Assembly (NCBI GenBank): GCA_951406725.2
Contig: OX597814.1
Coordinates: 181,102,001 to 181,166,000, forward strand
DNA length: 64,000 nt
Source: Octopus vulgaris
Taxonomy: Eukaryota
Direction of reading: 5' to 3'
Made by a program: the position numbers and the translations under genes. Every line of letters begins with the position of its first letter. The stretch's first letter is position 1. The notes beneath the pieces were generated by a model. It was not told the origin of the DNA and did not search any database. It saw only the letters and a program-made list of their open reading frames with translations. This document shows, in pieces, positions 18,601-64,000 of this stretch.

Positions 18601-21600
18601 CTTTCCATCTCAATTGTGGTCCCCAATTTTTAAAAAGTTTTATTAATTTATTTATTTACTTTGTCCTTATTCTATTTCATGCATTCTTTACCACCAACTA
18701 ACAGGGCATTTATCATAAACATTTATCATGTTTATCATATATCCATCCATTCATCCACACCACATGTCCAAACGTAAGTTATTACAACTTCTCTTAACAG
18801 TTACTTGCCTTAGGGCATTGGCTGTGTCCTGGAAAGTGATTGCATCAAACATGCAGCCATTTGTCTATATCTTTGCTTACTGTTCCCAACACACCAATTA
18901 TTATAGACACAACCTTTTCTGTTCTCATGCTCCAAATTCTTCCTATTTAAATATTATTATCTGCATGTTTGATGCAATCACTTTCCAGGACACACTCAGT
19001 GCCCTAAGGAAAGTAACTGTTAAGAGATGTTGAAATATAACTGAAAGCTTTGGCGGGAGGGGTAAGTAAGGAGGGCAGTACAGAAATACATTCATATAAT
19101 ACAACACATACATTTAAATTGATTGTGTTCTTCTAAGGATGTGGGCAGTACTTGTTAACACAATCTTTTGGTTTTATTTCACACTAGCAGTATTGCCCGG
19201 CTTTGCAAAATGGTCACATTTAATTCAAAGCGTTAAAAATGTTATGAAAACAATTGGTATATGTTCACAAAGTCCAAACGATTAATACGAAAAAACCCTC
19301 CAGGCTACATCCCGAAAATTCATTTCTTTGTCGAATTTCTACAATGTTTACGGCGATTTGTTTTTATATCTTGATTTTTTATTTTTCATGCAATTTACGC
19401 ATGCTTGCACACGTGGTGAACACAGTTCACATCAAACAGCTGACTGAGTAAAGTTTACTATTAAATGCATGGGATAAGGCCTAAACAAACACATTCTCGA
19501 TTTTTGCACTTGTGAAATGAATTTCGGAACAGAAATAGCGCAGTTCAATTTTCATTCGCCTAAACTTTAAGTGACTCATTTTTGGTGGTTCTACGATTTG
19601 TTGGCTAGGAGGAGATGTGCCAGGAAGTTAAACACACAGACACACACACAGATACACACACAGACAAGTTGGGTTTTATATATATAGATATGGTTCTCCT
19701 GGGATGTTGTCTAAATGTTTCTGACATCCATTTTTTATCATACTTAGGGCTCCTACAGTAACATCTTTCGTATTTCAATTTCCAGATTCTTATATTTACT
19801 AAGCTTGTTAAATTCCTTTACAGATATATTTTTATCAGTGGGAGGGCATATCTATCAGTCTACAAGCATTTCTTCCCTGTCTTTAATAAGTGTCATCTTT
19901 ATACTTATTTGGTGTTATTATTATCATTGCCCTGTGCATATAAGCAAAAGCAGGGTATTGTAATCACTCATTTTTGTTTGTTTGTGTATTTGCAAAATTA
20001 CTGGAAAATGGCTGAATGGATTTTCACCACATTTGGCAGAAATGATGAACATGCGGTTTGATTATCTTTAAATGTAAAAAAATCAAACTTACAAATTTCC
20101 CAATATCATTTTGTTCACTTTCTTTTTCTTATGAATCAACCCTTACCTGTGTGTGTATAGATCATGGTGTACCTATGTGCGTAGACAAATGTGGGTACAT
20201 ACATACATACATAGGTATGCGACTGTGTGTGTGTATAGTGATGGATCCTGGGTTTCTTTTATTTATGACTTGATTTCTTAATTTCACTAGAGTATAAATA
20301 CCTATAATGGTGATACTTGAAAAAAAAATTTTTCTAATTGATCTCACAAATTTCAAGATAAGCAAGTGATCATATTATTTTGTCCACCATTTCTTGGAAA
20401 GTGAACAGGAAATAACTGTGGTTCTCTTATTATTGTTTTACAAAATGGTCATCTGAACATGTCATTTTTGTTAATTCTATCTTTTACTAGAATTAGTTTC
20501 ATTAGTGTTCTTTGATTATGACATTTTATTTTTATATTTTTAATTATATTGATTTTCTTTTTAGCTGGAAAGGAAAATATCAAATTTGAATAAAGAAAGA
20601 GATAATTTGCTACAGAATATACATGAACTGGAATCAAACCTGAAGAAATATGAGAATCAGATAAGGTAAAATGGAGTTAAATTTAATATTAAACTGATAA
20701 AATTAGTACTCAACTTCCTTTTTTAAAATGATAGTATGATTTAAGTAAGATTTAACTGCTATTTTTAGCATGTCAGTACCAATGACATTTTTCATAGCAT
20801 TCAAGAGTGGTGGGATGAAATTATCCTCAGATTGAAGAGCTAGCCTAAATGCTTACAATGATGAGGACACTGCTAAAGACACCTATGTCTACCACCAAAG
20901 ATTTAGTATCCTAGATATGACCATCCCATTTTTTCCAGCATAGTATTTATAAGACTGCATTATCCATTATGCTCTACCATTTGAATGTGGCTGTTGCCAG
21001 TACCACTAGACTGGCCTTCGTACCGGTGGCATATAAAAGCTCCCACTACACTCTCGGAGTGGTTGGCGTTAGGGAGAGCATCCAGCTGTAGAAACTCTGC
21101 CAGATCAGACTAGAGCCTGATGCAGCCATCTGGTTTGCCAGTCCTCAATCAAATCGTCTGACCCATGGTAGCATGGAAAGCGGATGTTAAATGATGATGA
21201 TAATATGAGGGGGATTTGGCTGCTTTTCATATATGCAGGTTAAATGACAAGGCAGAGGCTCCCTAATTGGTTCACACACACACATATGTATGTGTGCATC
21301 GTGTTTCTTAATTTTGACCACATTAATTATCAAACAATTTTTGTTGCTCTACACAAAGCATTTAAACTGGGCTCCAGGAGGAGTGGAATAAATTTATCAA
21401 TTTTCAATATTGAGACACTGCTGAGTATTGTAAAGTTGAAGATGTAAGCTCCTGGGAAGCAGACTCCACAATTTAATTTTGAATTCTGGTTGGAACTGCT
21501 TTGTTTTTCTTGTATTATGAGTGTCCTTCAGAAACATGGTAAAGTAATAAATCACACATCTTATATATAATATATAATGAAATTATTGTATACAGTGCTC

Positions 21601-63047: not shown

Positions 63048-64000
63048 ATCTATTCCTTTCTTTAATTCTTGCATATATATATATCTTAGTAAAAACCACG
63101 ATATCTGTTGCCAAATATAAGGGGTTGTTTTATTCAGTTAATAATTGGAGGATTGGGGGGAAAAAAAAAAGAAATATTTATGGTGTTTAGTATCAAAATT
63201 AAGCCTAACAAACACTCACTACCAGAAAAAAATAATTTCAGTCAGCAATTGTATGATAAATGTAATAAAGACTTTATTTATATATTAAAGAAAATCAACA
63301 CAACTCTGAAAAATATTTAACATTTACTTTATTATTTCTAATAGAGAAATCCAACAACATTTTTAAAATTTAATTTTTTTTTCTTTAAATAAATGTGAAC
63401 AGTAACATAAATTAACAAATTTAGCCACGATTTCTTTTTATCTTGTTTGCAAGTGATTAACACTTCTATGTGAACACGATATCAATATAAGCAGGTTTCA
63501 ATAAAATATAGTAACCAAATTAACGACAATACAATTAATATACACATATATCACAATGTACTATATACAAACAAAATTGAAGCATAAATTACAGTTAGAT
63601 AAATGTTAGGCATCCATCATGAGATTTTAGATGAAGAGGAAAAAAATAGCCTTCTAAATTGATATTTTAGTTGTAGAAGCATATAAGAGTATTTAGAAAT
63701 AATTGATGGTTCAGCTATTAACAGTTGAATCATCAAAATCTTCCAACATTTAAATAGAAGAGAAATTGATTACTTCACAACAGTAAATGGTAAATGTTAA
63801 TATGGCAAATACTTAATTGAAATAAAGTAAGCTGTAAACGGTTGAATATGCTAGATTGTTCAACCAATGATGAAGACTAAGTGAAAGCTTACAAGGGGTT
63901 TTATAGTAAATATTTCAAATAGCTCTCAGTTTGGAGCTGTAAAAATGTACTGACTTCATAAAAAAGTTTATACCTTAGCTAAAAGAGAAATTTTGAAAGA

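What the first reader, a model, noticed from the sequence alone, without database searches (positions are those of the whole stretch)
18785..63071. Four unrelated palindromes share one architecture: divergently oriented hammerhead-like cores
The fold-backs at 18.8-19.0, 24.1-24.4, 26.1-26.35 and 62.8-63.1 kb have no evident similarity to each other. Each nevertheless has CT(G/A)AnGA...stem...GAAA...NUH-like...stem I in its arms, clear at 62.9 kb, reconstructable at 24.2 and 26.2 kb, and weak at 18.9 kb. The motif always reads outward from the centre. Inference: these are not ordinary MITEs but ORF-less inverted pseudo-LTR remnants, or non-autonomous ribozyme-bearing retroelements, from several Penelope-like families. 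Four in 45 kb suggests a very abundant and probably under-annotated class in this genome.
Basis: partly seen in the sequence, partly recalled or inferred. Interest (0 to 1): 0.8.

Follow-up and report, generated by a model that had tools for sequence, protein, structure and literature searches.

The report
Penelope-type twin-hammerhead palindromes in octopus
Four short mirror-image repeats in this octopus gene region each carry two decayed, outward-facing hammerhead (self-cutting RNA) motifs and are likely ordinary head-to-head insertion stubs left by Penelope-type jumping genes, while the fold-back at 18.8 kb carries no such motif.

Summary
All four fold-backs are real. The 18.8-kb fold-back has no core. 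With both arms read together, 4 of 9 fold-backs in the window hit; shuffles hit in at most 12 of 3000. No single arm hit inward. In all four the predicted cut lies 29-39 nt from the outer end of the shared arm, one end abuts a TA/CA microsatellite, and no target-site duplication stands out. Contigs from four public runs show 24.2 kb is two inverted, unequally truncated copies of one dispersed repeat, not terminal repeats around a core; other copies carry the letters that repair the 24.2 and 26.2 motifs. This matches published Penelope inverted pseudo-LTR insertions and opposite-strand hammerhead pairs. No Penelope ORF was found in the window, Rfam's hammerhead models miss all sites, and cleavage is untested. 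Read-through RNA would bury each ribozyme in the fold-back (64-80 kcal/mol). The scan noted this kind before elsewhere in this genome. Verdict: new members of a known kind.

The parts
62766..63071 (.). Fold-back P62.9; arms differ at 17% of 132 aligned columns; 0.7-1.5 kb downstream of the last CCDC18 coding exon matched (61409-61522)
62942..63047 (+). Type I hammerhead, right arm: core CTGAAGA at 62956, 62-nt stem II region with a 14-bp inner hairpin, GAAA at 63025, palindromic stem III, GUA triplet ending 63036, bulged stem I
62790..62890 (-). Type I hammerhead, left arm: core starts 62878, GUA triplet ends 62801; a perfect 11-bp hairpin at 62812-62836 takes up the 3' strand of stem II (likely a later template-switch change)
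   Evidence: origin of the hairpin inferred
62226..62523 (.).
62247..62327 (-). Hammerhead, left arm of P62.4: intact core CTGATGA at 62314, intact GAAA, GUC ending 62263, decayed stem II
62421..62500 (+). Hammerhead, right arm of P62.4: two core positions mutated, 4-bp stem I intact, GUC ending 62484; both arms together give a 13-bp stem II
26108..26355 (.). Fold-back P26.2 in the CCDC18 intron between exons at 25566-25712 and 26944-27078; left core (-26192) intact with AUC at 26147; right core (+26268) and triplet (26316) mutated; other genomic copies carry G at 26270, which restores the core
24077..24399 (.). Fold-back P24.2 (79-nt arms, 90% alike); cores at +24328 and -24148, triplets ending 24370 (GUC) and 24106 (GUU; other copies give GUC); an extra A sits before GAAA in both arms
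24171..24320 (+). 5' extension of the right copy of P24.2: the 'spacer' belongs to the same repeat as the right arm
   Evidence: table 8: contigs of other loci span 24171-24402
23856..24076 (-). 3' extension of the left copy of P24.2, running towards the (TA)n tract; shown by contigs from 23900-23960 onward, 23856-23899 inferred
   Evidence: tables 2 and 8
23789..23852 (.). (TA)n microsatellite at the long end of P24.2, likely insertion target
   Evidence: target role inferred
18780..19037 (.). Fold-back P18.8 (77-nt arms, 92% alike, 104-nt spacer, TA on both sides): no hammerhead; not part of the group on present evidence

Best explanation
The fold-backs at 24.2, 26.2, 62.4 and 62.9 kb are pairs of opposite-strand hammerhead motifs from four unrelated repeats, likely inserted head-to-head in one event each by Penelope-like retrotransposon enzymes as two 5'-truncated copies of the element's 3' end. 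Inferred steps: a GIY-YIG endonuclease nicks a TA/CA-rich target; the reverse transcriptase copies the RNA from its 3' side and stops early; a second, inverted copy is made at the other side of the break; both copies keep the ribozyme because it lies near the 3' end, so both read outward. The RNA may be the pseudo-LTR end of an autonomous element or a non-coding retrozyme-like passenger; the window cannot tell which. The copies then decayed (arms 10-22% apart). They are likely inactive in place: the two cores lie on opposite strands, so they cannot form the dimer such motifs are thought to need, and any read-through RNA makes the antisense arm first. The 18.8-kb fold-back is something else, most likely a MITE or an inverted pair of a ribozyme-free repeat.
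For: Motif: strict descriptor hits both 62.9 arms; 4 of 18 arms outward, 0 of 18 inward, 1 hit in 5,400 arm shuffles; two-arm test 4 of 9 fold-backs, shuffles reaching the score 1, 0, 0, 0 of 3000; named structures paired in 82% (62.4) and 93% (62.9) of cells against 28-44% when slid. Geometry: cut site 29, 35, 37-39 and 39 nt from the outer arm end. Other copies: contigs from other loci cover right arm plus spacer (24171-24402) or left arm plus outer flank (23960-24156); depth drops to about 190 at 24174 next to the junction; joints 24074>24253, 24079>24261, 24079>24234 show other junction points; 3' extension about 6-fold deeper than the ribozyme part; majority letters restore GUC (24106), a stem II pair (24343) and the 26.2 core (26270). 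Target: a TA/CA run of 8-28 nt at one end of 4 of 4 hammerhead fold-backs, 0 of 4 others tested, 3.7% of random 35-mers. Literature: opposite-strand hammerhead pairs 100-700 bp apart (PMC4209133); head-to-head inverted pLTRs (PMC3846280); inverted 5'-truncated copies, 30-40 bp tail, (TA)n bias (PMC8557442); Penelope-like expansion in O. vulgaris (PMC13282606).
Against: No Penelope RT or GIY-YIG ORF next to any fold-back or in the window (27 of 60 nearby ORFs scanned; 119 ORFs of 72 aa or more). No Rfam hammerhead family among 22, 13 and 23 matches. None of 8 arms folds into the hammerhead as its minimum-energy structure; forcing it costs 9-19 kcal/mol in the four arms tested. Covariation is unproven: two sequences per family, one double change in 62.4, none in 62.9, shuffle control uninformative. 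The descriptor was loosened after inspection to admit 24.2 (extra base before GAAA) and 62.4 (a stem II bulge); before that 62.4 was matched by 7 of 400 shuffles. The 24.2 extension exceeds 180 nt, far more than the published 30-40 bp tail. Other copies were examined only for 24.2 and 26.2, and 127 of 167 difference rows were not shown.
Confidence: 0.78

Rival explanations
1. The four are MITEs of DDE transposons and the hammerhead-like words are chance or incidental.
For: Short, ORF-less, inverted arms; mariner remnants in the window (Transposase_1 at 59906-60175). The 24.2 joints could also be internal deletions of a long-TIR element. Fits 18.8, which has TA on both sides.
Against: Motif enrichment and one-way orientation; no TSD above chance, longest shared flank words 5-8 nt against a random mode of 5; the 24.2 spacer travels with one arm only in the contigs listed.
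Confidence: 0.06
2. Single hammerhead-bearing copies were inserted first and folded back later by DNA template switching or repair, without a retrotransposon-made inversion.
For: A local template-switch-like hairpin exists in the left arm of 62.9 (62812-62836); both 24.2 arms share an A where about 98% of other-copy depth shows T at 24343, which one arm copied from the other would also give.
Against: Four unrelated families share orientation and the 29-39 nt offset; other loci show further inverted junctions of the 24.2 family; a shared template in one insertion explains the shared letter equally well.
Confidence: 0.07
3. Penelope-derived palindromes have become mobile as whole units, like MITEs, or the pairs are selected host elements (RNA hairpins that switch the ribozyme or attract A-to-I editing).
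For: Three fold-backs lie in or near CCDC18 introns and would form long hairpins of -138 to -169 kcal/mol.
Against: Arms have drifted 10-22% apart with core-breaking changes; each family occurs once in the window; no listed contig spans both arms of 24.2 (a weak negative).
Confidence: 0.09

Closest known systems
Inverted pseudo-LTR insertions of endonuclease-positive Penelope-like elements (PMC3846280 passages; PMC8557442 passages and Fig. 2 legend; PMC8969392 passages)
   Same: Head-to-head inverted, 5'-truncated 3' ends; extension at one end only (24.2); hammerhead near the 3' end; microsatellite targets; TSD often not discernible.
   Different: No ORF present; the 24.2 extension is over 180 nt rather than 30-40 bp; clade cannot be assigned.
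Metazoan PLE hammerheads, including opposite-strand pairs 100-700 bp apart in Schistosoma mansoni (PMC4209133, parts 1-2 of 4 read)
   Same: Type I topology, short stem I, long stem II, short or palindromic stem III, decayed single or paired copies without ORF.
   Different: Stem II regions here are longer (13 bp in 62.4; about 60 nt in 62.9, against 7-8 bp); 62.9 has a GUA triplet; Rfam models do not detect them.
Metazoan non-LTR retrozymes (PMC7229834 passages; bioRxiv 10.64898/2026.07.22.740005 parts 1-2 of 5)
   Same: Non-coding, type I hammerhead, low GC, proposed to be mobilised by PLEs; the 24.2 unit (over 400 nt, ribozyme internal) could be such a monomer.
   Different: Retrozymes are defined by head-to-tail tandem units and circular RNAs; no tandem unit occurs here and no RNA was examined.

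Membership tests
Type I hammerhead ribozyme | CUGANGA, GAAA and NUH in type I order with three stems | tested here: met
   62.9 both arms; 24.2 right, 26.2 left; 62.4 from both arms; not met for 18.8
Type I hammerhead ribozyme | Match to a curated Rfam hammerhead model | tested here: not met
   No hammerhead family; long stem II and decay may explain it (inference)
Type I hammerhead ribozyme | Stem covariation across copies | tested here: inconclusive
   Two sequences per family; 1 and 0 double changes; majority letters of other copies repair some positions
Type I hammerhead ribozyme | Self-cleavage at the NUH site | not testable with these tools
   Needs in vitro transcription; only contigs were available
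Penelope-like element (EN+) | ORF with PLE-type RT and GIY-YIG endonuclease linked to the repeat | tested here: inconclusive
   Absent from the window; linkage elsewhere untestable without the genome
Penelope-like element (EN+) | Inverted, 5'-truncated copy of the 3' end, head to head | tested here: met
   Shown for 24.2 by other loci; for 26.2, 62.4, 62.9 only orientation is shown
Penelope-like element (EN+) | 30-40 bp tail at one end | tested here: inconclusive
   24.2 has a one-sided extension of over 180 nt; others not examined
Penelope-like element (EN+) | Insertion bias for (TA)n/(CA)n | tested here: met
   4 of 4 against 3.7% per random end; test set up after inspection, and the 24.2 end chosen
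Non-LTR retrozyme | Head-to-tail tandem units, each with a type I hammerhead | tested here: not met
   No such array at these loci; arrays elsewhere in the genome not testable
Non-LTR retrozyme | Small circular RNA | not testable with these tools
   No raw RNA reads offered
MITE / DDE transposon | Fixed TSD flanking terminal inverted repeats | tested here: not met
   No shared flank word above chance for the four hammerhead fold-backs; 18.8 has TA on both sides, inconclusive
MITE / DDE transposon | Both arms and spacer move as one unit | tested here: not met
   24.2: spacer goes with the right arm, outer flank with the left arm; untested for the others

The most novel reading that the evidence does not exclude
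The hammerhead acts as a landmark for the Penelope reverse transcriptase rather than only as a cutter. In four unrelated families the shared arm ends 29-39 nt past an uncut or re-ligated cleavage site, so one cDNA would be primed at a fixed distance from the ribozyme while the other can start further 3'. The outward geometry would also make every insertion self-masking, because the antisense arm is transcribed first, letting many ribozyme pairs sit harmlessly in octopus introns as long double-stranded RNA.
Probability: 0.2. Interest if true: 0.55.

Novelty: new member of a known kind. Interest (0 to 1): 0.27.

Why it matters
If right, short octopus palindromes that MITE finders would call DNA transposons are partly retroelement footprints, and long-stem hammerheads missed by Rfam are common in this genome. 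That matters for repeat annotation and gives many natural insertion intermediates for the open question of how Penelope elements make inverted ends and what their ribozyme does. The architecture itself is published, and these copies are old and probably silent.

Tried and rejected
Whole-genome search: no genome held. Two exact-motif scans of metagenome contigs found nothing. No RNA holder listed among 24 runs; this says nothing on expression. Rfam gave only hairpin-type miRNA and snoRNA matches below their gathering scores. Pfam scans found LINE-type RT, LTR-retrotransposon and mariner pieces but no GIY-YIG. Stray descriptor hits at +34575, -46949 and -40527 lie outside fold-backs and were not pursued. 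Fold-backs at 33.8, 35.0, 41.2 and 52.2 kb have no hammerhead. Earlier scan notes by sequence (62226-63071) and by nearby place returned nothing. Paper searches 'hammerhead + Penelope + inverted + octopus' (3 papers), '+ cephalopod' (3) and 'hammerhead + octopus' (51, top 20 listed) showed no paper on these octopus palindromes; the library lacks most subscription journals, and no supplements were read, where octopus PLE consensus sequences may be given. Depth figures were not used as copy numbers.

Full report
Context. The window is octopus DNA. An 83-aa exon is 100% identical to a protein named for Octopus vulgaris and 96% to O. bimaculoides CCDC18. Twenty-three CCDC18 exon matches run from 12518 to 61522 on the + strand, and RPL5 exons lie on the - strand upstream. 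No whole genome was held.

Observation. Self-blastn confirms the four fold-backs at 18780-19037, 24077-24399, 26108-26355 and 62766-63071. It also shows four more non-simple ones (34840-35139, 41090-41282, 52126-52321, 62226-62523), and adds 33591-34130.

Hammerhead test. A strict type I descriptor gave 3 hits in the window, two of them the arms of 62.9. A relaxed descriptor gave 5 hits, 4 of them in fold-backs that cover 2,672 of 64,000 bases. Per arm, with an exact core, 4 of 18 arms hit outward and 0 of 18 inward; 1 of 5,400 dinucleotide shuffles hit, and the rest of the window gave 1 hit in 122,656 strand-bases (10 with one mismatch allowed). Letting each column use either arm's letter, 24.2, 26.2, 62.4 and 62.9 hit and 18.8, 33.8, 35.0, 41.2 and 52.2 did not; column shuffles hit in 0-12 of 3000 and reached the observed score in 1, 0, 0 and 0. 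The descriptor was widened twice after I had looked at the arms; without the stem II bulge 62.4 was matched by 7 of 400 shuffles.

Anatomy. At 62.9 both arms keep CTGAAGA, a 4-5 bp base of stem II, GAAA, a palindromic stem III, a GUA triplet and a bulged stem I. The named structure is paired in 93% of 57 cells against 30-44% when slid, with no double change. At 62.4 the left arm keeps the core and the right arm more of the stems; together they give a 13-bp stem II, 82% of 50 cells paired against 28-44%, one double change. With two sequences these counts do not show covariation. The predicted cut lies 29 (24.2), 39 (26.2), 37-39 (62.4) and 35 nt (62.9) from the outer end of the shared arm. Arms differ by 10, 19, 22 and 17%. 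Against activity: no Rfam hammerhead model matched, none of 8 arms adopts the hammerhead as its best fold, and forcing it costs 9-19 kcal/mol in an arm alone and 64-80 kcal/mol in the whole fold-back (4 cases).

Other copies. Contigs of four public runs were laid on 23900-26340 at 80% likeness. Diverged contigs from other loci cover either the right arm plus the spacer (24171-24402) or the left arm plus its outer flank (23960-24156). Depth in run X1 is about 190 at 24174, 2,100-2,400 over the arms, 12,800-15,000 over 23900-24063 and 44-91 in single-copy bins. So 24.2 is two inverted copies of one dispersed repeat, one longer at its 5' side and one longer at its 3' side. Joints at 24074>24253, 24079>24261 and 24079>24234 show other junction points at other loci. 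Majority letters turn the left triplet into GUC (24106), restore a pair in stem II (24343) and restore the core of the 26.2 right arm (26270). Both 24.2 arms share A at the 24343 position, where about 98% of other-copy depth shows T, as expected if both came from one template. Limits: depth is not a copy number, 127 difference rows and most contig pieces were not shown, and 18.8, 62.4 and 62.9 have no such data.

Ends. No target-site duplication stands out: longest shared flank words are 5-8 nt, and random pairs give mostly 4-7. A TA/CA-type run of 8-28 nt lies at one end of each of the four hammerhead fold-backs, at 0 of 4 others tested, and in 3.7% of random 35-mers. This test was set up after inspection, and for 24.2 it uses the long end found.

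Mechanism. Shown: opposite-strand, outward hammerhead motifs; unequal truncation at 24.2; microsatellite neighbours; decay. Inferred from published Penelope biology: nicking of a TA-rich target, target-primed reverse transcription from the 3' side with early stop, and a second inverted copy in the same event. Both arms run past the cut site, so the template was uncut or re-ligated there (inference). Whether the RNA was an autonomous element's pseudo-LTR or a non-coding passenger is open: no GIY-YIG domain was found in 27 of 60 ORFs near the fold-backs or in 119 longer ORFs. In place the motifs are likely silent, since they lie on opposite strands and any read-through RNA makes the antisense arm first.

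Known work. Cervera and de la Pena report hammerheads in PLE pseudo-LTRs and dual motifs 100-700 bp apart on opposite strands (PMC4209133, parts 1-2 of 4). Arkhipova and colleagues describe head-to-head inverted pLTRs with an optional tail (PMC3846280, passages). Craig and colleagues describe inverted 5'-truncated copies, a 30-40 bp tail and (TA)n bias (PMC8557442, passages; also PMC8969392, passages). Retrozymes are tandem, non-coding and proposed to ride on PLEs (PMC7229834, passages; bioRxiv 10.64898/2026.07.22.740005, parts 1-2 of 5 and a term search). An O. vulgaris annotation lists 31 recently active Penelope-like families and an expansion at JC distance 0.2, with no mention of hammerheads in its main text (PMC13282606, passages); 235 hammerhead loci were counted in giant squid (PMC6962438, passages). 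Searches showed no paper on these octopus palindromes; supplements were not read. Hammerhead position names (NUH, stems I-III) are partly recalled.

Earlier scan notes. The same kind was noted on other pieces of this genome (8 notes shown of 250 that fit) and in another genome. They are unchecked AI notes and are not counted as evidence; one pointed me to PMC3846280.

Verdict. Observation partly confirmed: three of four, plus one new. Interpretation partly supported. New members of a known kind; interest 0.27. The residual interest lies in the long stem II variants that Rfam misses and the constant 29-39 nt offset between ribozyme and arm end.

Noticed in passing
window 62226-62523: A further hammerhead fold-back 240 nt from the 62.9 one, of an unrelated family; taken into the analysis.
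   Followed up: yes
window 34840-35210: Head-to-head pair of an abundant repeat (about 11 other pieces in the window) with the same asymmetry as 24.2: one copy longer 5', the other longer 3'; no hammerhead.
   Followed up: partly
window 41090-41282; 33591-34130; 52126-52321: Fold-backs without hammerhead; 41.2 is an inverted pair of a repeat also found at 58051-58113; 52.2 has TA-rich outer ends.
   Followed up: partly
window 62812-62836: Perfect 11-bp hairpin in one arm only, likely a template-switch mutation; it would block stem II of that hammerhead.
   Followed up: partly
window 23896 (- strand): A second exact CTGATGA followed by GAAA near the far end of the 24.2 extension, without matching stems.
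   Followed up: no
window 24228-24309: Inside the 24.2 spacer a short stretch has about 20-fold more depth than the arms in run X1, so part of it is shared with a far more abundant repeat.
   Followed up: no
window 5450-11294 (-) and 12518-61522 (+): RPL5 and CCDC18 lie head to head with about 1.2 kb between the outermost coding matches found.
   Followed up: no
window 21683-22804; 30784-32062; 44776-48349; 50766-51068; 59558-60175: Decayed mobile elements in CCDC18 introns: two RT fragments, an LTR retrotransposon broken into several frames (protease, RT, RNase H, integrase), and mariner-like pieces.
   Followed up: no
window 39985-40078 and 52040-52133: A 94-nt repeat, 95% alike in inverted orientation, each copy next to a TA/TAA microsatellite.
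   Followed up: no
window 43746-43970: (TTC)75 microsatellite.
   Followed up: no
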